Positions 32,079-49,379 of a stretch of 64,000 bases of DNA are shown here, piece after piece (within the stretch, counting starts at the first letter, position 1; every line of letters begins with the position of its first letter). A program made the position numbers and the translations under genes. The DNA lies in contig NC_088862.1 of the NCBI RefSeq assembly GCF_963853765.1, positions 24,180,001 to 24,244,000 of the forward strand, read 5' to 3'. This DNA comes from Magallana gigas. Its lineage: Eukaryota. Below the pieces are notes generated by a model. It was given only the letters and a program-made list of their open reading frames with translations. It was not told the DNA's origin and did no database searches.

Positions 32079-32857
32079 TATAAAAAAAAATGGCGGCAAC
32101 TCATTGTATAAATGTATAAATTGTATAAATGTATAAATTGTATAAATGTATAAACAGGCATTGCAATACAACATACGCATAAAGTGAGGCTATTGCTGTT
32201 GTTTTTTGATATTTAAAATATTGATAGACAAATTTGATTGTGCAATGTACGTATATGACATATTTAACATTGCTTGTTTTCATAAATTGCTAGTAGAGTA
32301 CACCTGTTAAATTTTATTATTTCAAAATGCATAAATTATCTATATATAGATAAGTGTAAACCTTGAAAAGTGTTTTTTTTTTCTGTATATCTGTTCTTTG
32401 TAGTTTCCGGCAAATCTCATTCGGGTTTTTTGAACCAATAGTTTAAATGTAAACCATAATTGAAAAAAAATATTCTTCCTCTTTTTTATTTTAAAATATT
32501 TAGTAACTATGTTAAAATCACAACAAATGTCAAGTGTAAATTGCTTCCTTGTTACAAAACTCTTTAATCATTCCGGTTTCTTTGGGTTTTTTTAAATTTG
32601 AATTCAAAGGATATGTCCTTGTGAAATATTTTAACTTTACAGAAACATATTCATAATGCATATTTCTATTTCTTTAAATTCATATATGTCAGAGAGGGAA
32701 AGCGATACAAAATAAGATAAGTATAATATACTAGAACAAAAGTTTGTGTGCGAACACAGACTTCCTGAAAAAATCCATCAACCCATTGTTGATGATATAT
32801 GTGCATTGCCTGAACAAAGTATTTAATTATGAGCGCACACAAATGAGAGAACGTACT

Positions 32858-33570
32858 TGATAATGTACGTAAGTTGGGGGACGAGTGTATTGATAATGTA
32901 CGTAAGTTGGAGGACGAGCGTATTGAAAATGTACGTAAGTTGGAGGAAGAACGTATTGATAATGTACGTGTGTTGGAGGAAGAGCAAATTGATAATGTAC
33001 GTAAGTTGGAGGACGAGCGTATTGATAATGTACGTGTGTTGGAGGAAGAGCGAATTGATAATGTACGTGTGTTGGAGGAAGAGCGAATTGATAATGTACG
33101 TGTGTTAGAAAAAGAGCGTATAAATAATGTACGTAAGTTGGAGGAAGAGTGCATTGAAAATGTACGTGTGTTGGAGGAAGAGCGTATTGATAATGTACGT
33201 GTGTTGAAGGAAGAGTGTATTGATAATGTACGTGTGTAGGAGGAAGAGTGTATTTGATAATGTACATATATTGGAGGAAGAGCGTATTTGAAAATTTACG
33301 TGTATTGGAGGAAGAGTGTATTTCATAATGTATGTGTGTTGGAGGAAAAGCGTATTTGATAATGTACGTGTGTTGGAGGAAAAGCGTACTTGATCATGTA
33401 CGTGTATTGGAGGAAGAGCGTTTTTGATAATGTACGTGTTTCGGAGGAAGAGCGTATTTGATAATGTACGTGTGTTGAAGGAAGAGCGTATTGATAATGT
33501 ACGTGTGTTGAAGGAAGAGCGTATTGATAATGTACGTGTGTTGTAGGAGGAGCGTATTGATAACGTACGT
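32858..33570. repeat. 33/34-bp minisatellite, about 21 units
   Basis: Unit attgataatgtacgt(gtg/aag)ttggaggaagagcgt; explains the ORFs at 32666-33584. Confidence 0.95.
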
Positions 33571-34362
33571 GCATCAATGGTCAAGCCTATTTGATTACAT
33601 ACTTTTTTGGAAGTGAAAAAACCGTATTTGTGACGTTATTTTCCGGAATGGTTATATTATGTAAACGTGAAAGAATGTATTGTATATTTTATGTACATGT
33701 AGTTAAGGATAGACGTACATGTATATAGATGTATACGTCACATTTTTGAAGAAACACATATAAAACGATTCAAAATGCAAGCCTAGCGTCATGACGAATG
33801 CAGTTCTACTAAATGGCATATATATCTGTTATAGATTTGATCAGCTTTCAAAGCGGAGGTAATGACTTTATGCGACGCTAGGATCAATCAAGTCATTTCA
33901 TTTGTCGCATGGAACAGAAAACGCTCCAAGAATTCAATTACACTCGGGAACCTTTCCAATCTCTCTGCCATAACTATTTTTCCCCTTGAGCGAGCCGTCT
34001 CTGTGTGTAACGCTCTTCCGTCAGTTAGGAGCTTCGTGGCCTTCCAAACGCATTTGCTGTAAAAGCTGGTCCCATTTTATCGATCCCTTGTATTTTTGTT
34101 CCTGAACTGCTGGCAATGCATATTCCAATTGGCAATCCTATTGGAAATGTCAAATTGACAGTTCAAATAGATTGAGTCCCTTGGGTTATGCGATATTTTA
34201 ATACTTGAGCGATTTCAATTACCATGAAATATTTACATTGTGTTCTTTGCAGCAGACACAGGGCTTTCGTCGTTTCAATGAGTGAGTAAGATGTTATAGA
34301 GATAGTCTGAGGACTGAAGTCTTTTCTTTTTGAGCTCTGGAATGGTTTACTTTTTCAAGTGA

Positions 34363-35529: not shown

Positions 35530-35659
35530 TGCAAGCCATGTAAATTTTACTCGATTTATACTAGATTCAGAAGCTTCACAAAAATACAAACAATATACAA
35601 AAAAAACACACCCCCAAAGATATAGAGCAGATTCCAGTTGTAAATATTCTACCAAGCCT
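35530..35659 (+). pseudogene. Penelope-like RT fragment, left of the insertion
   Basis: Degenerate equivalent of LYWIPKLHK.PYK.RYIA.S.KCSTKP; contiguous with 39491 in the paralog. Confidence 0.7.
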
Positions 35660-35940
35660 TGTAGCAACCTCTAATGATACAACGTCCACTAATGATATAA
35701 TGTTGCATTAGTGGTCAGGATGTTGACCACTAATGATATAATTTTATCATTAACGAACAACCTAACCGTCCGCTAATGATATAATTTTAGATTTATATCA
35801 TTAGCGGTCAAAAACCGTAGCCTCTAATGATATGGGAAAAAAATGAGAAATAAGGACTACCTTGACCACTAATGATACACATTTGCATACATTTTTAATT
35901 GCATTAGTGGATGGATTTGCAACCTTTAATGATATAATAG

Positions 35941-36083
35941 NNNNNNNNNNNNNNNNNNNNNNNNNNNNNNNNNNNNNNNNNNNNNNNNNNNNNNNNNNNN
36001 NNNNNNNNNNNNNNNNNNNNNNNNNNNNNNNNNNNNNNNNNNNNNNNNNNNNNNNNNNNNNNNNNNNNNNNNNNNNNNNNNNN
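35941..36083. other. Assembly gap (N)
   Basis: N run. Confidence 1.
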
Positions 36084-37128
36084 GATACTGCATAAGAATT
36101 GGTTAATTTTTTTATTATTTTTTTTTTTTGGTGGGGGGGGGGGGGCGTTATTTGATCATATACATGTATTTTGTCCGTTATTGTAAAATACACCATTCTG
36201 ACATTACCCTGATATTTTGCCTTTTTACTTGAACTGAAATAGTCGCATACAGACAAAATACATACCTTTTATGACTTCGTCTGTTTACTTGAAGATCCAA
36301 ATTGATTATCATTAATCAAAAAGGACTTGTGCTAAATATTTTTAGTTGAAGAAAGTTTGAAGAAAAGCAATTTTACGATATTAAAACATTATTGATAAAC
36401 TTTTAGCGGGATTTTATTAACATGAAAAAGGTCCAATTCATAAGACTTATTCTGCCTGGTGCAGGCAGATAGCTATTCTTGCACAACGCAAACAAAAGTC
36501 ACACGGGTTTCATACATGTATTTTGTGTGGAAACGTTGCCGTCATGAATAATATTGGTAAAAAACTACAACAAATAGAAATAACAAATTACTAAATAGGA
36601 ATATATAGAATTTAACTTTATACCTTTAACTGTAAATTACTTTAAAGACCATAATGGTGTGCCATACTTTTAAGAATGTTTTATCTGTAAAATAAATTTC
36701 CATCTGTAACTATACTTCAAAAATACAATTTAATACTAACAAATTTGAGCAATTACTTCAATAAAAAAGACTTACTTAGTGGTTCGAGGCACGCATCTAA
36801 CAAGATTGAAGACGATTGACAAAGTGAGATCGGACTGGTCAGTAAGGCTGACAGGAAGTGAGTGATTGACCAGATATAGTTAACTTGTACCAAAAATGAT
36901 TACCGGGTATATTAAACTCAAAGTGGTTAGCTTGTAAAAAAATATTTCTGAAGAATTTTAAAATTAAACCATAGACAACACAAGACTATTTGCTATTATG
37001 GTCTGTAGCACAATTGAATCACTAATTTATTGTTAAGTTGAATATGTGGGTTTGTTAATTATACCTTAGAACAACAAAGAATATGAAATAATGTTGGTTG
37101 AATTAAAACTACTTCAACAATGGTGATT

Positions 37129-38999
37129 ATGTCGGTGTAACAAAAAATGTTAACCCGGGTTAAAAATTGACCCGGGTTTGATAAAATTATATCATTAGTG
37201 GTCAACATTCTGTCCACTAATGCAACATTATATCGTTAGTGGTCAGTGTATCATTATATAAATAGTGCCTGTTTGGGAGGTTAACAGTTGAAATTGACAC
37301 CCCGAGAGAACCATTGTCAACCGACCGCTTCGCGTCGGTTGACAATGGTTTTCGAGGGGTGTCAATTTCAACTGTTATCCTCCCAAATAGGCACTATTTA
37401 TTTTATTATACTGAATGTCTTAATTTTAAAGAAATTTTTCTGCTTTTGTATAGAAATGACGTGAATTCTACGGCGAACTGTACGCGCATAATTTACGCGC
37501 ATGTAACAATTCGTTGTGTTACCCGTTGCCAAGTGTGTTGCTAACGCTGAGGGTAATAGAGCAAATTATCAACTGCGTCTAAACCAATCAGATTTCAGTA
37601 TTTAACATGAAAGTATAATAAAAGAGGTTGCTACATACCACGTTTTCAGTCAAATGAAATATTAAATGATTGAAGTCAGAAAAATCAACCTTTGAAATGT
37701 CAAATTACCCAAGACGGCAAATATAGCGGATAGTATGAAAGAGTTAAAGTTTTGAAACCGAAACTTTTAAGTACACACATGTACAATTAAACTGTGAAGA
37801 GCAAGTTACACTTCTGTTCAAAGACAGTTCAAAACTTTGAAGTCGGAGTCAATTTTCAACAGGGTCAGTTTTCAACGTGTCGATGTCCTTAGAAGTTTGA
37901 AAAATATTTTTCAAGCTGTTGAAAACTGACCCCAGGTATAATTTCACGACTTTTGGTATCAATTTTTCAACGTTGAAAAATGATATCCGGGTCAAATTTC
38001 AACCCGGGTCAAGATTCCTCGTTACGCCGGCGAATGCGTCATAAATGTCCAATACTCCCTAAACACACCCACGAAAAAGTTTCTGTGTAGTGTTTGTATC
38101 TGTATTGAACACAATATTTTTTTCTGTCAAATCAAGATAAGTAGCTTATTAATCATAATTTTGTTAATCTTGCAAGTTTAAGAAAAGTTATTGCTAAGTT
38201 GAATTAATTAAATAATCACTGATCGCGACTTGTCTGATAAAAATATGAAAACTGCTCATTATTGTGCTGTCAGTTAATTATCATGACTTCTCAAAATAAA
38301 TTAAAGTTGAAGCGATTTACCGGAAATATAACATAAACGGCCGGTATTGGTTTGACAATCTTAGCAAACCACGGTCAACATGAACGATCATGGTGGAGAG
38401 AGATATATATATAAACGGACACCGGACCATGGCTTGAGACGATGTTGTTTGACATATATTCCTTTTAGCTCTATCTACACAGTTTAACAACAAGAGACAG
38501 AGTTCTTAGTCTTAATAACAAACTGTTGCTATCGGGAAAAAAACCCGAAACAAAAACAAGCAAAAACAAAAATCCATATCAGCATGAATATCGGACAATA
38601 TTAGGAATTTAAACATGGAGCTGAATTTTTTTATCAGATACAAAATAATTAGGTAGAGCAAGTTCCATTTCAGAGACAGTTCAAAAACCTGTAGTTGGTC
38701 AATTTTCAACGTGTGAGGTCATCGGAGATTAGAAAAAAAAACTTTTTTGAGCGTTTGGTCGCAGTTTTAACGTTAGAAAAGCCCCCGCCCCTCCTCCCCC
38801 CCCCGCCCCCCAATATCCCAAATCAATAATCAATGTTGAAAAATGAAATCCGGGTATACATTTCACGACGTTTGGTCTCAGTTTTCAACGTTAAAAAAGC
38901 CCACCACCCCCACCCCCTCCCCGAATCAATAATCAATGTTGAAAAATGAAACGCGGGCCAATTTTTAACTTGGGCTAATATTCTTTGTTACAACGACAT
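37129..38999. mobile_element. Nested TIR element (atgtcg(g/t)tgtaacaaa...) with ttttcaacg-rich subterminal repeats
   Basis: atgtcggtgtaacaaaaaatgttaacccgggttaaaaattgacccg vs reverse complement of right end atgtcgttgtaacaaagaatattagcccaagttaaaaattggcccg; a further right-end-like copy ends near 38030. Confidence 0.6.
37259..37619 (+). mobile_element. Palindrome-plus-tail element (Crypton-like non-autonomous)
   Basis: Palindrome 37259-37400 with arms of about 67 bp and apex cgcttcgcg, then a tail of about 220 bp; inverted relative at 45403-45677. Confidence 0.75.
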
Positions 39000-39056
39000 G
39001 ATCCCTATTGTTTAAGTAGTTTTATTTCAACCAACTTTATTTGATATTCCTTGTTG

Positions 39057-39215
39057 NNNNNNNNNNNNNNNNNNNNNNNNNNNNNNNNNNNNNNNNNNNN
39101 NNNNNNNNNNNNNNNNNNNNNNNNNNNNNNNNNNNNNNNNNNNNNNNNNNNNNNNNNNNNNNNNNNNNNNNNNNNNNNNNNNNNNNNNNNNNNNNNNNNN
39201 NNNNNNNNNNNNNNN
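39057..39215. other. Assembly gap (N)
   Basis: N run. Confidence 1.
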
Positions 39216-39490
39216 TAAAGGTTGCAAATCCATCCACTTATGCAATTGAAAATGTGTGCAAATGTATATCATTAGTGGTCAAGGTAGTACTTATTTCTCA
39301 GTTTTTTTCCATATCATTAGAGGTTACGGTTTTTGACCGCTAATGATACAAATCTGAAATTATATCATTAGCGGACGGTTAGGTTGTTCGTTAATGATAA
39401 AATTATATCATTAGTGGTCAACATCCTGACCACTAATGAAACATTACATCATTAGTGGACGTTGTATCATTAGAGGTTGCTACAAAGCCT

Positions 39491-40215
39491 ATTTCTTTCC
39501 TACTTACTAGAATTCTTAATACTGAGTATAGTGAAGGAGAAACTTCAAAAATACTATACAACAATATACTCCAGCTAGAAGCGATGTGAATCAGATATAG
39601 TTACTTAAAAACTCTAACGAATTATTAAAAACTTTGAGATCACAAAATCTTACCTAAATCAATAACATCAAAACGTACAATTTTTCAACACTTTACACAA
39701 CCATTTCCCCATTACAAATTAAAATTTAGGCTTTTTGATATCATCGATAGTTGTTCCTTAAATACAAATGGGACTCGTAAAATTTCTTTAGTTACCTTGT
39801 CATTGGAAGTCTACAAAATAATAATGTTAAAAGCCATTCTGACTGTACACACAGGTACTCTAGGTCTGCTGTTTACATTAAAGAGGTGTGTGAATTTTCT
39901 GTTACACAACATCTGTGTAGAGTTTAAAGACCAAAATTTAATATTCCAACAATCAGTTGGAATTCCAACGGACACAAATTGTGCTCCTCTTTTGGCTGAT
40001 TTAGTTTTATATTCATATGAAGCAGAATTTATTCAAAAGCTTGTGCAAGAAAAAAATAAAACACTTGCCAAGGCCTTCAACGCGAGATTTAGATACATTG
40101 GTGATGTTCTATCCATTAACAACATAAGTTTTTTAATACTTGTTTGTCATTATTTATATACCAGACTGACAACGGTTTCGGCAGGGGGTGCTTAGTCCTC
40201 CTAAGCGCCTGCAGG
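39491..40215 (+). pseudogene. Penelope-like element reverse transcriptase, decayed
   Basis: KTYNFSTLYTTI, QQSVGIPTDTNCAPLLADLVLYSYEAEFIQKL, FRYIGDVLSINN correspond to PLE RT motifs DFSTLYT / GIPMG / YIDD, with catalytic Asp substitutions, stops and frameshifts. Confidence 0.9.
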
Positions 40216-42561
40216 CATATTCAGAAACTTTCCTAAGATATGACCAATGTATGTTCCTATGATAGGACCCAGGAAAAAAAGTAGGAACATTCTTAGATCA
40301 ACTTAGAACACGTCTTTAGATGTAGCTTGATGTCTTAACTTAATAAAATTATTCTTATTTTTCACATTTAATCATACAGATGGAGTTTGAGATACTTTTG
40401 TAAGGAAAAATCATTAAACTTTACGAGAGAAAATTGTACGTGTCGATCTGTAGTGACATGTAACACGAAAGGCCTAAAACCAGTAATTTTATATGTAAAC
40501 ATTTTCAAAACTTTACAGTTATCTACAAATATATATCAGTGACTAATCCCAATTTAGTCAAAAAAAAAACAAAGAAGGAATAACAAATAGGAAGAGAGAA
40601 AACGAAGCAACCCCCCCCCCCTTGAAATCCAAATAATTGCTGTTTTTTTTTTTAAAGAAAATATGTAACAGGACAGAATTGGCTTTTAAGAAAATGATTA
40701 TTTATTAAACACGTGCACATTCTTTGAGTGTTAATTAACATTTGCAAATTTTGTCATTTAAGTACCTGAATGTCAAAACAAGTTAGTTATGACATTGGTT
40801 TCAAGTGAAACATACACAGTTTGCCTTGTCTTGGCTCAAAAGCCAGACAAATCTTGTTGATTTCAAAGAGCGATGCCTGATTGGCCAGAGGTGAAATACG
40901 CAGGCCTACCTCAAATTCTGTCTGACACAACTACCCACACTCCAAACACCTGTTAATTATAAAATGGTTCGAATGGTCACAGAATTGCATAACTGTATCC
41001 TCTTCAGTCACCATTCCAAACCTGTCAGTTAACATTCAGGTAACTTATCATCTTGTGTATTATCTTTTATTTCTGTCGTTGGAAATATTGATGCATTTTC
41101 CCTGCAACTTATTTAAAATTGATACAATTTAACTTTACATGCATAATCAAATAAATTTTGTCGGATGTTAATCACAAGTAAGTGTTTGTTTTCTGTTCTG
41201 TGGGATGAACGGTCTATAGTTTAATCACACATTACTTAGACTGTTGGCTGCGATGCTTGTTTTTAACTTTAATTAGACTGTCTATCCCATACTTAATCTA
41301 ATGATGTCATTGTGTGGTTGATACAGACTCTATGAGTTTTTTATATCACAAAAAGGACGGACTGTATTTGGTATTGTCAAATATCTGACCCAAATTTAAA
41401 CGAATTCTAATAGTATCGTATCGAAATTAAATCTTCATAAAACATTATACAGAGGATGTCAACTACATTTATCTTAATATTCATCATCATTGTCCAATAG
41501 GTGTTCATCTATGACGTCACAAAAATGAGCATATTCCCGCCTTTTGGCAAACAATTGAAAATATTTTCATTTTTCCTTCATATTTTGCCTTCAAAATCTT
41601 TGCATATGTTTTTGTTCTTATAATTATTCAAATCAAAGTAACGAATGGTACAAAAGATGAAACATGCGCTCGATGCTTCCCAGTCGAAAACGAAAATCCG
41701 TCGAAAAACACCAATAGTTTGCTTTAAAACATTGATTTTTCAAAATAAGGCAATTTTTATGACGACAATTTATACATTAAAACGTCACTTGGATGCTTAA
41801 TTTTTACATACTTATATTTGATATGGTTTTAACTATCTTCAACCTTATTTTATAAAGCTTTCTATTAAAGCTTAATTTGGGGGGCGAAACATGCTCAGTA
41901 CCCGACAAAGTCTTTCACCCTTTGATGCAAATACCATTGTCTTGGTCATATAAAGTGCAGTGACTTCCCACAAAGTCTACGTTTGTTTGAATTGATTTAT
42001 TTACAATGGTCTTGACGTTGAATCTTAAATACGTATGTCATAGTCATTAGGTTTCATTCCCACTTTAATTTTCCATGAAAGAATGAAAAAGTAAAACGTT
42101 AATGTGTCCATCAGTTGTAGAACACGAAAACAATTTAAGAAGGCTCAATATTGTAGCTATTTTTAGACTCTATTGGTCTCCTTTAAAGAAGAAGCTCTGT
42201 ATCAAAATGTAGGAAAATGCCAAAATTTAAAAGATGGGATATACGGAATTTTTTCTTCAATAAAAATATTTATAGCTTAACAAGTCATATCCTAAAATTT
42301 TTAGGTAGATCTGATGGTTAAGGACGAGTGCACTTATGGGCCGCGGTAAAAAGTGAAAAAAAAATAAGAATCAAATTAAGCGTAATTTTTCACCTAACAT
42401 CACCAATTGATATCCAATCCATAAGAGTCAACATGTTTTAGTGCTGAATTTACTGTATATCAAAAGCACAAAGCCTTACAACATAGTAGGGGTCAGCCGA
42501 TATTGTGATTTTGTATAGTAAATCGAGGACGGGCATTCAATTTAAAGCCTTTGTTTACTGT

Positions 42562-42894: not shown

Positions 42895-45302
42895 TGTTGT
42901 AGCCTCTAATGATAAAATATCCACAAATGATATGAAGATGCATTCGTTGTCAGAATCCTGATTAACTACTATGATTTGATTTTAAAAAAATGAACTATCT
43001 AACCGTCAATCAATGATAAAATGTAAAAAGTATATATCCACATTCATTATATAATGATTATAAGAGAAAGATTCAAAATAAGTACATTGTTGATCTTTAA
43101 TGATAAAAGTTTTTAAGCATTAATGGATGAACTTCAACTTTTATAGATACAACTATGTATAAAATAGTACTGTTGTAAATTTTGGCCTGTAACTCTTTAC
43201 ACATAATATTGATACCATTCATGGCAGAAGATCCACCTACCAGTCATATTCCAATAAAAAGATACTAGACTACGTATATAATTATTATTATTATTGATCA
43301 ACTAATAGATGCACATGTTTTGAATTGTGTGCTTTGTTAATAATCCATCAAATGCATTCTTCTTAGCCAACAGAGAAATAGACAGATGGGCGTGTTAAAG
43401 AGCACGACTTGTCTAAAATTTGACCACAACAGTTATATTTCATAATAAATGTATCATAAATGGGTGAGGTCTATCTTATAATGCAATGAAATTACATAAA
43501 TAATATTGAAGAATATCGATATAATTATTTGTTTTAAAGGACTATCTATGGTATGGGCCTAAAGTGGCCCCTTTAAAGGAATATCATTATTTTACTGTAA
43601 TTCTTTGTTTTCTTTGTACAGATATATATGTGATGTTTTTATTTAATGTTCATTTTGATTCAAGTGCCCACAATTTAGAAATACGGCATTGTAAAGACAA
43701 CCTTTTCCCACCATTTTTGCATTTTAGGATAAAAAAAAGCTTGTTTTCAAGTAGTTTTTCTTTCAGGAAACATAGAGCGCATGCTTGAACCAACAAAATA
43801 TTTAAATCAGAGATGTATCTAGCCAAGTCTAATAAGTGACAAAAAAGTTGTCCTGGTTCAAGCATGCGCTCTATATTTCCCATTAATAAAAAGATTAGAA
43901 AAATGTCAATTTTCGACTGAATTTGTTTGAATTATAGAAATAGCGTCACTTCTGACGTCATATACTGCAAGTAAGTGCAAATAAATCAAACAAATATGTG
44001 AAAATATATTTTAAATCAACTCTTCTAAATTATAACAAAACCTTTTATTGTACCCAAAACACTTTAAAAAATAGTGAATTATGGGGGCCAAATTTAACTC
44101 TTGTCATATGTAGTTCTTTCAAATCATTATTAAATGTGATTTTGGACCAATAGTGATCATTTTTTGTACATTGTATCAATAATGGACGAGTATGTCGTAC
44201 ATTAGTGATAAAATTATAACACAGTTAATCAGGATTCTTACCACTAATGAAACTCTATGGTATTAGAGGATATTTTTATCATAATAGGTTATTAGATGGA
44301 CATCAACCAATAAGAAAACATTTATGTATGTTAACACTGTTTTGATAGCATGCCTTTTTGCATGCATATGCCCCTCTGTCTATTTACTTGCTACATTACT
44401 GAGATTTCAACTTTGGTTTTAAAATTCTTTTTCTACTATACATTTTAAACGAAGTCACATGTTTGTTGGAAACACGTCTAAATAATAAGATCACATTCTG
44501 GATAATTTATGTTCAGTTGTCAAGAGAAAGAAGTGAACTTAAAAGGAGCTGTTTTGATTTATTTATTTTTGGTAAATTTTGTCATTACTGTAAATGCTTA
44601 CTTTAAATGCAACAAAACCAACCAAATCTCGAAAAAAGATAAATAAACTTCAGCAAAGTATTTTGAACAGTCTTTAAAGAGGTTTCTTTCTCTGCTTTCA
44701 AACATTTTTTTAACTTCTAATCTGTAAAAATTCTGCACCATGTACTTTTTTTTTATCATATATAAATTATGATGTACAATGCCAAATAAAGATCATTGAT
44801 TTAACCTTGTAATAGCTAGGTTTGTAGACAGATTTGTAAGAAGTCATTGTTATAATAAACATGTGCCTAAAAAATAAAACCTTATTAAATCAAAGGAATT
44901 GGAAATACATATCAAACACCGATTAAATGATCTAATGATGCTTTTTTTAGCCAACAGAGAAATAGACATGGGTACAAGCAGAATTTTAAACATTACTTTT
45001 TCACTTATAATTGTATCATTACTGATTAAAGTCCACTCACTATGGCAATAAATTTTTATCATTAATGTTCAACGATGTTCTTATCTTGTTGTTTACTCTT
45101 ATATTTTTAGTTGATGTGAATTTTGACAATTACATGTATCTAACTGTCCATTTATGATACAATTGGAAAATTATATCATAAATGGACAGTTAGATACATG
45201 TAATTCGTAAATGATAGATATTATATCATAAAGGGTCAGTACTCTGACCACTGATGCAACTTTATATCATTAGTGGATACTGTATCATAAGAGATTACTA
45301 CA
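42895..45302. mobile_element. Older member of the TGT...ACA / 6-bp TSD family (TSD AAACTG)
   Basis: aaactg|tgttgtagcctctaatgata ... tatcataagagattactaca|aaactg; ends homologous to the 35660 TIR. Confidence 0.7.
43534..44121. mobile_element. Kolobok-like non-autonomous element, degenerate
   Basis: ttaaaggactatctatggtatgggcctaaagtggcccc vs reverse complement of right end ttgaaagaactacatatgacaagagttaaatttggcccc; internal inverted repeat agagcgcatgcttgaacca. Confidence 0.5.
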
Positions 45303-45402: not shown

Positions 45403-45677
45403 TTGTTATACTTTCATGTTAAATACTGAAATCTGATTGGTTTAGACGTAGTTGATAATCCGTTCTATTACCTTCAGTTTTCTATTTAAAAGCAGAAACA
45501 AATTCTCTAAATTAAGACATCCAGTATAATAAATTAAATAGAGCCTGTTTGGGCGGATAACAGTTGAAATTGACACCCCTCAAAAACTATTGTCAACCTT
45601 CGCTTCTAGTCGGTTGACAATTGTTTTCTTCAATGGTGTCAATTTCAACTGTTACCCTCACAAACAGGCACTATTTA
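45403..45677 (-). mobile_element. Second palindrome-plus-tail element, inverted and internally deleted
   Basis: Homologous to 37259-37619. Confidence 0.75.
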
Positions 45678-45733
45678 TGTAATGAAAACCAATGACATCA
45701 AAACCGTAAAAATTGTATTATAATAATGAATGA

Positions 45734-46989: not shown

Positions 46990-48040
46990 AAATGCATTGT
47001 GGCACGAACTTTGATCTTCCAATCACAAGACAGGTAAAACATTACTTGTCATTGTTTGTAATGTACATTATAATAATTGCATTATTAAATTCAATTTTAC
47101 ATGTGGCAAACAATCCTACTTACACCAACAGCAGGCTTTCCAAGGAGGAAATACGTCAAAATATTGAATCGGTATTTGATATCTTTAATATCCCAAATAA
47201 ATGAAATGAATTTGATTTTCGTATTTATACTAGATACCGAAGCTTCCCAAAAATACAAACAATATACCAAATAAAAAACCCCCAAAGATATAAAGCAGAT
47301 TCCTGTAAATGTTCTACCAAGCCTATTTATTTATTCCTTACTAGATATCTTAATACTGAGTATAGTGAAGGAGAAACTTCAAAAGCACTATACAACAATA
47401 TACTCTAGGTAGTAGCGATGTGAATCAGATATATTTACTTAAAAACTCTAACGAATTATTAAAAACTTTGAGATCACAAAATCTTACCTAAATCAATAAC
47501 ATCAAAACGTACAATTTTTCAACACTTTACACAACCATTTCCCCATTACAAATTAAAATTTAGGCTTTTTGATATCATCGATATTTGTTCCTTAAATACA
47601 AATGGGACTCGTAAAATTTCTTACCTTGTCATTAGAGGTCTACAAAAAATAAAAAAGCCATCCTGATTGTACACACAAATACTTTAGATCTGATGTTTAC
47701 ATTGAAAATGTGTTTGAGTTTTCTGATAGACAACATCTGTGTAGAGTTTGATGACCAAATATTCCAACAATCAGTCGGAATTCCAACGGACACAAATTGT
47801 GCTCCTCTTTTGGCTGATTTAGTTTTATATTCATATGAAGCAGAATTTATTCAAAAGCTTGTGCAAGAAAATAATAAAACACTTGCCAAGGCCTTCAACG
47901 CGACATTTAAATACATTGGTGATGTTCTATCCATTAACAACATATGTTTTTTAATACTTGTTTGTCATTATTTATACACCAGACTGACTACGGTTTCTTC
48001 ATCTTTTCATGATGTTGACAATGAGCACACGGCGGATGAC
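46990..48040 (+). pseudogene. Penelope-like element reverse transcriptase, decayed, paralogous copy
   Basis: NPTYTNSRLSKEEIRQNIESVFDIFNIP through GIPTDTNCAPLLADL and FKYIGDVLSINN; shares the disabling substitutions of copy 1. Confidence 0.9.
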
Positions 48041-49379
48041 TAATCCCAATTTAGTAAAAAAAACAAAAACAAAGAAGGAATAACAAAAAGGAAGAGAGAA
48101 AACGACGCACCCCCCCCCCCGAAATCTAAATGATTGTTTTTTTTTTTTTAAGAAAATATGTAACAGGACAGAATTGGCTTTTAAGAAATAAATAATTTAT
48201 AAAAACACGTGCACATTCTTTGAGTGTTAATTAACATTTGCAAATTTTGTCATTTAAGTACCTGAATGTCAAAACAAGTTAGTTATGACACTAGTTTCAA
48301 GTGAAACATTCACAGTTTGCGTTGTCTTGGCTCAAAAGCCAGACAAATCTTGATTTCAAAGAGCGATGCCTAATTGGCCAGAGGTGAAAGACACAGGCCG
48401 ACCTCAAATTCTGTCTGACACAACTACCCACACTCCAAACACCTGTTAATTATAAAATGATTCGAATGGTGACATAATTGCATAACTGTATCCTCTTCAG
48501 TCACCATTCCAAACCTGTCAGATAACATTCAGGTAACTTAATGGCAAAGTATCAACTTGTGTATTATCTTTTATTTCTGTCGATGGAAATATTGATGCAT
48601 TTTCCCTGTAACTAATTTAAAATTGATACAATTTAACTTTACATGCATAATCAAATACATTTTGTCGGATGTTAATCACGAGTAAGTGTTTGTTTTCTGT
48701 TCTGTGGGATGAACGGTCTATAGTTTAATCACACATTACTTAGACTGTTGGCTGCGATGCTTGTTTTTAACTTTAATTATACTGTCTATCCCATACTTAA
48801 TCTAATGATGTCATTGTGTGGTTGATACAGACTCTATGAGGGTTTTTTTTATCACAAATAAAGGACTGTATTTGGTATTGTCAAATATCTGCCCCTAATT
48901 TAAACGCATTTTAATAGTATCGTATCGAAATTAAATCTTCATAAAACATTATACAGAGGATGTCAACTACATTTATCTTAATATTCATCATCATTGTCCG
49001 ATAGCTGTTCATCTATGACGTCACAAAAATGAGCATATTCCCGTCATTTGGCAAACAATTGAAAATATTTTCATTTTTCCTTCATATTTTGCCTTTAAAA
49101 TCTTTGCATATGTTTTTGTTCTTATAATTATTCACATCAAAGTAAAGAATGGTACAAAAGAGGAAACATGCGCTCGATGCTTCCCAGTCGAAAACGAAAA
49201 GCCGTCGAAAAACACCAATAGTTTGCTTTAAAACATTGATTTTTCAAAATAAGGCAATTTTTATGACGACATTTATACATTAAAACGTCACTTGGATGCT
49301 TAATTTTTACATACTTATATTTAATTTGATTTTAACTACCCTTTGATGCGAATATCATTGTTTTGGTCATATAAAATAG

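What the first reader, a model, noticed from the sequence alone, without database searches (positions are those of the whole stretch)
35654..39490. 3.8-kb element with TGT...ACA ends, long TIRs and a 6-bp TSD, confirmed by an empty site
Seen: termini tgtagcaacctctaatgat / atcattagaggttgctaca; about 95% identical TIRs of at least 270 bp built from CACTAATGAT sub-repeats; AAGCCT on both sides; the paralogous Penelope copy has a single aagcct (47319-47324). Established: TG...CA ends typify retroviral-integrase-like DDE enzymes (LTR elements, Ginger), whose DNA-transposon members usually make 4-5 bp TSDs, while the 6-bp-TSD Polintons end AG...CT. Inference: a non-autonomous member of a poorly classified or unclassified superfamily. 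No transposase ORF is visible.
Basis: partly seen in the sequence, partly recalled or inferred. Interest (0 to 1): 0.7.

Follow-up and report, generated by a model that had tools for sequence, protein, structure and literature searches.

The report
Young oyster transposon lacking known enzyme
This is a real, recently spreading, non-coding jumping element in an oyster genome that duplicates six bases at GC-centred target sites and is absent from this spot in some other oysters; it is likely moved by an integrase-type enzyme encoded elsewhere, which was not found.

Summary
Confirmed. The element is 35660-39484 (TGT...ACA), flanked by AAGCCT. It belongs to a multi-copy non-coding TIR family: 170 exact 20-bp ends occur in the 564-Mb genome. 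Of 68 end pairings, 49 have an exact 6-bp duplication and none an exact 4-, 5- or 7-bp one, so the 4-bp reading is refuted. Targets are palindromic and GC-centred (40 of 49). TIRs are about 314 bp with nine CTAATGATA boxes. Copies are young (0.13-1.24% from their nearest neighbour), and public oyster runs hold the empty allele of this locus. No copy examined encodes a transposase. The ends match none of 54 IS3EU/GingerRoot, 30 hAT or 12 Polinton loci sampled; Ginger transposases and Repbase could not be tested. Best reading: a non-autonomous element moved in trans by an integrase-type DDE enzyme with a 6-bp stagger, lineage unresolved. The scan had not noted this family; a 4-bp look-alike was noted in another genome.

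The parts
35654..35659 (+). Left target-site duplication AAGCCT
   Evidence: family-wide 6-bp TSDs
35660..39484 (.). Whole non-autonomous element, 3825 bp, TGT...ACA
   Evidence: nearest sister copy L037 differs by 0.34% substitutions
35660..35940 (+). Left TIR, visible part (about 314 bp in gap-free copies), with CTAATGATA boxes in both orientations
39216..39484 (-). Right TIR, visible part
39485..39490 (+). Right target-site duplication AAGCCT
37179..37635 (-). Internal truncated (about 90 bp) copy of the TIR ending GAGGTTGCTACA at 37635, split by a nested element; it is the true right end of shorter 1.1-1.2 kb family members (L044, L233, each with its own 6-bp TSD)
37253..37623 (.). Nested palindromic high-copy repeat (another copy at about 45403-45685), absent from older family members
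37136..38026 (.). Captured ends resembling a Ginger1-type miniature element (TCGG|TGTAAC at 37136, GTTACG|CCGG at 38026; a third similar end at 38992); classification inferred
   Evidence: I5, D8; the ends at 38026 and 38992 are 70-77% like the TIR of a TGTAAC...GTTACA element in L290; CCGG target rule from PMC2836005
47319..47324 (+). Single AAGCCT in the paralogous copy of the flanking repeat (paralogous empty site)
42895..45302 (.). Older member of the same family in the window, 2408 bp, TGT...ACA, TSD AAACTG, ends 72-78% identical

Best explanation
It is a young, multi-copy, non-coding DNA transposon that duplicates six bases at GC-centred palindromic targets and is likely moved in trans by an integrase-type DDE transposase not found in this assembly. 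Shown: fixed TGT...ACA ends, a 6-bp duplication, a target of the form A-n-n-[V W G C W B]-n-n-T, TIRs of about 314 bp with nine CTAATGATA boxes, interchangeable non-coding interiors (324 bp to 9.6 kb), and a presence/absence polymorphism at this locus. Inferred: the enzyme binds the CTAATGATA boxes, pairs the ends, frees the 3'-CA-OH ends and joins them to the target with a 6-bp stagger, which host repair fills to give the TSD. Cut-and-paste is assumed from the anatomy; excision was not observed. The lineage is unresolved; a Ginger-like enzyme with an unusual 6-bp stagger is the leading guess.
For: 170 exact 20-bp ends, control 0. 49 of 68 end pairings have an exact 6-bp repeat and none an exact 3-5 bp or 7+ bp repeat; TSD positions 1 and 6 are complementary in only 12 of 49, which excludes the 4-bp reading. 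Two long copies seen across separate loci also have exact TSDs, AAGCAT and CAGCCC. GC centre in 40 of 49, and A at -3 in 68 of 98 symmetrised sites, against a background GC dinucleotide rate of 2.6%. Nearest-neighbour divergence is 0.13-1.24% among 22 full-size copies. In run X6 a contig matches 35435-35659 with 1 difference in 225 nt and continues straight into the window's own right flank, not the paralogue's; X7 and X8 (probably one data set) show the same over 90 nt. Ends are conserved while interiors differ. The termini fit the TGTNR rule of Ginger elements and Gypsy LTRs (PMC2836005, passages), and 6-bp TSDs occur in the integrase-type groups GingerRoot, IS3EU, Polinton and IS481 (PMC6839031, PMC10045372).
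Against: No transposase gene or remnant lies between family ends. Of 140 ORFs scanned with Pfam the transposase-family hits were a neighbouring MULE with its own TIRs and a fragment inside a 4.6-kb nested insert. 170 local TE-locus proteins against 58 element stretches gave only 3 weak hits in a nested repeat. The enzyme class therefore rests on end sequence and TSD length alone. Described Ginger elements make 4-5 bp TSDs, with CCGG or RTATAY targets (PMC2836005). A trinucleotide end is a weak classifier: fungal PlavakaA, a non-integrase lineage, also ends TGT...ACA (PMC12730594). 19 of 68 pairings lack a perfect TSD (7 have 5 of 6 matches; the rest are old, rearranged or alternative pairings).
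Confidence: 0.68

Rival explanations
1. A TG...CA-ended, non-autonomous member of IS3EU/GingerRoot.
For: 6-bp TSD, occasional TG...CA ends and GC-rich targets are described for GingerRoot, and homologues are reported from Pacific oyster (PMC6839031, parts 2-4 of 7 read). The genome has 92 PF24764 matches, in elements with long sub-repeat TIRs and 6-bp TSDs.
Against: None of 54 fetched PF24764 loci matches the TIR beyond its AT-rich tail. The ends that could be placed begin TAYG and carry tandem 21-bp arrays. 0 of 51 such end motifs have a GC-centred flank against 40 of 49 here; the 51 include both ends of some elements and possibly internal motif matches.
Confidence: 0.13
2. A miniature element mobilised by a Polinton integrase.
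For: A 21-kb Polinton in this genome has TGCTGC...GCAGCA ends, a perfect 262-bp TIR with TAGAGGT sub-repeats and a 6-bp TSD (rve+chromo integrase). There are 128 PF03175 matches, so integrases with a 6-bp stagger are abundant.
Against: No TIR match in 12 Polinton loci (2 read over 30 kb, 10 on one side only, and an end was located in only a few). The two TG-ended Polinton sites seen (TATGTT, CACAAT) lack the GC centre. The family lacks the repeated terminal triplet (TGCTGC, AGTAGT) seen in the local Polintons.
Confidence: 0.12
3. A non-integrase transposase with a 6-bp stagger (hAT6-like or another lineage) moves it, and the TGT end is coincidental.
For: hAT6 families with 6-bp TSDs exist (PMC12730594, passage). 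Subterminal repeats are typical of hAT elements (recalled). There are 123 hAT dimerisation-domain matches in the genome.
Against: No TIR terminus within 1.5 kb of the 30 best hAT matches; this is only 30 of 123 and short flanks. hAT ends are usually YA...TR (recalled).
Confidence: 0.17
4. An assembly artefact or chance inverted duplication.
For: Two N stretches lie beside the TIRs in the window.
Against: Dozens of gap-free sister copies at independent loci, each with its own TSD, and an empty allele in other runs.
Confidence: 0.01

Closest known systems
Ginger1 and Ginger2/TDD (PMC2836005; passages and tables seen)
   Same: TGTNR termini; TIRs up to 260-297 bp (TDD-4, TDD-5, Ginger1-1_HM); palindromic target preference; non-autonomous copies known
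   Different: TSD is 4 bp (5 for TDD) with CCGG/CCGT or RTATAY targets; here a full 6-bp GC-centred hexamer is duplicated; no Ginger transposase was linked
IS3EU / GingerRoot (PMC6839031 parts 2-4 of 7; PMC10045372 and PMC12730594 passages)
   Same: 6-bp TSD; occasional TG...CA ends; GC-rich targets; long sub-repeat TIRs in the local families; capture of cargo
   Different: Usual ends TA..TA (TAYGG); local families have tandem 21-bp arrays and no GC-centred target; no sequence match to this TIR
Polinton/Maverick (PMC6839031 and PMC3014272 passages; local copies)
   Same: 6-bp TSD; long TIRs; one local family ends TG...CA
   Different: No polymerase, integrase or capsid genes here; no TIR match; no repeated terminal triplet; different targets in the two sites seen
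Bacterial IS481 family and eukaryotic IS481EU (PMC10045372 passages)
   Same: TGT...ACA ends in IS481EU; most IS481 members make 6-bp TSDs
   Different: IS481EU is known from parabasalids only, has TIRs mostly under 50 bp and TSDs of about 4, 15 or 25 bp; no genome match reached the NF033577 cut-off
Repbase unclassified oyster families named by TSD length (DNA2-, DNA3-, DNA4- names seen in PMC8268682 Table 1; a DNA6- series is recalled)
   Same: Non-autonomous oyster TIR elements without an assigned superfamily
   Different: Could not be compared; this family may already be catalogued there

Membership tests
Ginger1 / Ginger2-TDD | TGTNR termini | tested here: met
   TGTAG; rule from PMC2836005
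Ginger1 / Ginger2-TDD | 4-bp (TDD 5-bp) TSD | tested here: not met
   49 of 68 exact 6-bp, none exact 4- or 5-bp
Ginger1 / Ginger2-TDD | CCGG/CCGT or RTATAY target | tested here: not met
   V W G C W B consensus
Ginger1 / Ginger2-TDD | Gypsy-integrase-like transposase between related TIRs | tested here: inconclusive
   The rve search scored 150 of 1341 candidates; the best 30 loci read as LTR-type pol genes and had no TIR match within 1.5 kb; no Ginger transposase was obtained as a seed
IS3EU / GingerRoot | 6-bp TSD | tested here: met
IS3EU / GingerRoot | TA..TA termini, occasionally TG..CA | tested here: inconclusive
   TG..CA fits only the minority form (5 of 77, PMC6839031); local families begin TAYG
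IS3EU / GingerRoot | PF24764-type transposase inside an element with the same ends | tested here: not met
   0 of 54 fetched loci; some ends lay beyond the 10 kb fetched
Polinton/Maverick | 6-bp TSD and long TIRs | tested here: met
Polinton/Maverick | pPolB, integrase and virus-like genes, or TIRs shared with such an element | tested here: not met
   No ORFs; no TIR match in 12 loci sampled from 128 PF03175 matches
hAT6 | 6-bp TSD | tested here: met
   PMC12730594
hAT6 | hAT transposase with the same ends | tested here: inconclusive
   0 of the best 30 of 123 matches, 1.5-kb flanks only
IS481 / IS481EU | IS481-type transposase | tested here: inconclusive
   50 of 1605 candidates scored, none over the cut-off; flanks not read
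Existing Repbase/Dfam oyster entry | Sequence identity to a catalogued consensus | not testable with these tools
   No repeat library held; paper searches found no description

The most novel reading that the evidence does not exclude
The family marks an undescribed animal lineage of integrase-type DNA transposons (TGT...ACA, 6-bp stagger, GC-centred 12-bp palindromic target, IS481-like in signature) that is still inserting in oysters and whose autonomous element segregates in the population or is borrowed from a Polinton.
Probability: 0.27. Interest if true: 0.7.

Novelty: new variant of a known kind. Interest (0 to 1): 0.42.

Why it matters
A young, polymorphic, target-selective family with fixed ends is a ready handle for finding its enzyme. 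If that enzyme is a new integrase-type lineage, it adds a branch between bacterial IS481, Ginger, IS3EU and retroviral integrases, and a 6-bp, GC-centred integrator could be studied directly. If it is a Polinton integrase, it would be a case of a miniature element exploiting a virus-like integrase. Otherwise it is one more orphan non-autonomous family, useful as a source of 3-4 kb presence/absence variation in oysters.

Tried and rejected
4-bp AGCC reading with TTGT ends: rejected, TSD positions 1 and 6 are complementary in only 12 of 49. Long copies as autonomous partners: the extra length that was examined is nested inserts. L057 holds a 5.8-kb element with its own TIRs and no TSD; L069 has a 4.6-kb insert carrying a PF20700 fragment in an otherwise ordinary copy; L095 holds an IS3EU-type element with an ATTGCC TSD. 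The 12.6-kb and 25.5-kb pairs had no transposase ORF. The MULE beside L068 has its own repeat-array TIRs. IS3EU, hAT, rve, Polinton and IS481 family searches gave no end match; all were partial samples. A degenerate end pattern gave 4 hits in viral contigs, which look like chance matches without the rest of the TIR, and 0 in metagenome contigs. Rfam: 0. The first read lay on the whole element was swamped by repeats and listed no joint across it; run X4 did not cover the junction. The Ginger1-like element in L290 had no Ginger transposase to use as a seed. Paper searches found no description of this family (62 returned unrelated papers); the original Polinton paper was not obtained. The GingerRoot supplement (one small zip) was listed but not read and may hold animal end sequences that bear on membership. 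An idea that the 3.8-kb form is two short elements in inverted order was dropped, because the older members already have symmetric TIRs of about 265-300 bp.

Full report
Observation. The element runs from 35660 to 39484 and is flanked by AAGCCT on both sides. The visible inverted arms are 273 nt and 95% complementary. The paralogous copy of the flanking repeat has a single AAGCCT at 47319-47324. No meaningful ORF lies inside. The host is an oyster, judged from the run labels and the ten large contigs that hold nearly all hits in a 564-Mb assembly.

The family. The terminal 121 bp has 366 candidates in the genome; of 40 scored, 28 were 100% identical. The terminal 20 bp occurs exactly 170 times and the reversed control 0 times; 162 of these were listed by place. 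From the fetched loci and the window I formed 68 end pairings. 49 have an exact 6-bp direct repeat, 7 match at 5 of 6 positions, and 12 match at 4 or fewer; a few of the 68 are alternative pairings at one locus. No pairing has an exact repeat of 3-5 bp or of 7 bp or more. The first and last TSD bases are complementary in only 12 of 49, so the 4-bp reading fails. The target is palindromic: GC at the centre in 40 of 49 and A three bases upstream in 68 of 98 symmetrised sites. Lengths with an exact TSD run from 324 to 9619 bp.

Anatomy. Gap-free copies show a TIR of about 314 bp with seven forward and two reverse CTAATGATA boxes. Older members at 72-82% identity keep the same ends and boxes; one lies in this window at 42895-45302 with the TSD AAACTG. 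The interior is a patchwork. It holds a truncated internal TIR ending at 37635, which serves as the real end of 1.1-1.2 kb members, a nested high-copy palindromic repeat at about 37253-37623, and ends resembling a Ginger1-type miniature element. Conserved ends around interchangeable interiors are what a trans-mobilised element looks like.

Age. Among 22 full-size copies, nearest-neighbour substitution rates are 0.13-1.24%; the window copy is 0.34% from L037. Contigs from public runs show the empty allele of this locus. In X6 a contig matches 35435-35659 with one difference and continues with the 30 bases that follow the right TSD in the window, which differ from the paralogue's. It begins upstream of where the paralogous homology starts (35554), so it is this locus or a close duplicate of it. 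X7 and X8, probably one data set, agree over a shorter piece; X4 did not reach the junction. None of the four showed the flank-to-element junction. This is a pre-insertion allele and does not show excision.

Search for the enzyme. No copy examined carries its own transposase. Pfam scans of 140 ORFs (L079, low-complexity and redundant ORFs dropped) and of 12 selected ORFs found only host genes, retro-element pieces, a neighbouring MULE with its own TIRs and a fragment in a nested insert. 170 proteins from local TE loci against 58 element stretches gave three weak hits in a nested repeat. IS3EU/GingerRoot was the first candidate, because GingerRoot makes 6-bp TSDs and 5 of 77 elements end TG...CA (PMC6839031). 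The genome has 92 PF24764 matches. In 54 fetched loci none matched the TIR, the ends that could be placed begin TAYG with tandem 21-bp arrays, and 0 of 51 end motifs had a GC-centred flank. The 30 best of 123 hAT matches had no TIR terminus within 1.5 kb. The rve search was swamped by LTR-type pol genes, with 150 of 1341 candidates scored, so Ginger was not properly tested. Among 128 Polinton polymerase matches I sampled 12 loci. One 21-kb element ends TGCTGC...GCAGCA with a perfect 262-bp TIR and a TATGTT duplication; another appears to begin AGTAGT (by eye). None matched this TIR, and the two TG-ended sites seen lack the GC centre. The IS481 profile gave no match over its cut-off among 50 of 1605 candidates scored.

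Mechanism. Shown: fixed ends, a 6-bp stagger, a palindromic target, recent spread and polymorphism. Inferred: a DDE transposase supplied in trans binds the CTAATGATA boxes and joins the 3'-CA ends to a GC-centred site. The enzyme is probably integrase-type, because TGTNR ends are the Ginger and Gypsy rule (PMC2836005) and the 6-bp groups IS3EU, GingerRoot, Polinton and IS481 are all of this type (PMC10045372). I put this at 0.68 in the form 'Ginger-like or unclassified integrase-type', recognising that a three-base end is weak evidence; PlavakaA also ends TGT...ACA and hAT6 makes 6-bp TSDs (PMC12730594). Since the terminal 20 bp are shared by old and young subfamilies and almost all exact ends were placed without finding a coding copy, the autonomous element is likely absent from this haploid assembly or has diverged ends (inference).

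Comparison and verdict. It works like a non-autonomous Ginger or IS3EU element but fails a defining feature of each: TSD length and target for Ginger, ends and target for the local IS3EU families. It should not be filed under either. It may already exist in Repbase as an unclassified oyster family; this could not be tested, and paper searches found no description. Papers seen: PMC2836005, PMC10045372, PMC12730594, PMC8268682, PMC10294476, PMC3014272 and bioRxiv 2021.09.26.461848 as passages; PMC6839031 parts 2-4 of 7. The scan held no note on this sequence and one on a 4-bp look-alike in another genome. The finding is real and better supported than first stated, the signature is uncommon but not unique, and the missing enzyme keeps it open. 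Novelty: new variant of a known kind. Interest 0.42.

Noticed in passing
G000:C1:58012852-58033909 (L295-L297): A 21-kb Polinton with TGCTGC...GCAGCA ends, a perfect 262-bp TIR and a TATGTT duplication, i.e. TG...CA instead of the usual AG...CT; a second end of this family lies at C1:40248471-40248493.
   Followed up: partly
G000 contig C1: The large majority of the 128 Polinton polymerase matches lie on one chromosome-size contig, C1.
   Followed up: no
G000:C4:40202330, C1:35692974, C5:28504388, C4:20106707 and four more: A multi-copy family matching the IS481 profile over positions 63-283 (up to 111 bits, open frames up to 1043 aa), longer than the other integrase hits; flanks not read.
   Followed up: no
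window 37253-37623 and 45403-45685: A very high-copy palindromic repeat nested in the element's internal end; summed contig depth is over 100 times that of the rest of the element.
   Followed up: partly
L134-L173, L278-L291: At least six IS3EU families with TAYG ends and TIRs built of tandem 21-bp units, several with 98-99% identical copies.
   Followed up: partly
L057:1286-7105: A 5.8-kb insert with its own TIRs, no TSD and an AAA|TTT-like site, resembling a Spy/PHIS element (label recalled; no Pfam hit).
   Followed up: partly
L243 and L068 (G000:C1:48.33-48.35 Mb): A MULE with an ALS2CR8 domain and very long TIRs made of tandem units of about 138 bp.
   Followed up: partly
L290:366-5480: A 5.1-kb TGTAAC...GTTACA element flanked by ACGG/GCGG, Ginger1-like by ends, carrying IS3EU fragments but no Ginger transposase.
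   Followed up: partly
window 35554-35659 + 39485-41835 and 47223-49338: The flanking RT-like repeat is duplicated within the window at 89-94% identity; Penelope by a recalled motif only, no Pfam hit.
   Followed up: partly
window 32848-33613: A 33-bp tandem array of about 22 copies.
   Followed up: no
L080:9563-9637 and G000:C4:1078742-1078813: Mini-elements of only 72-75 bp made of two family ends.
   Followed up: no
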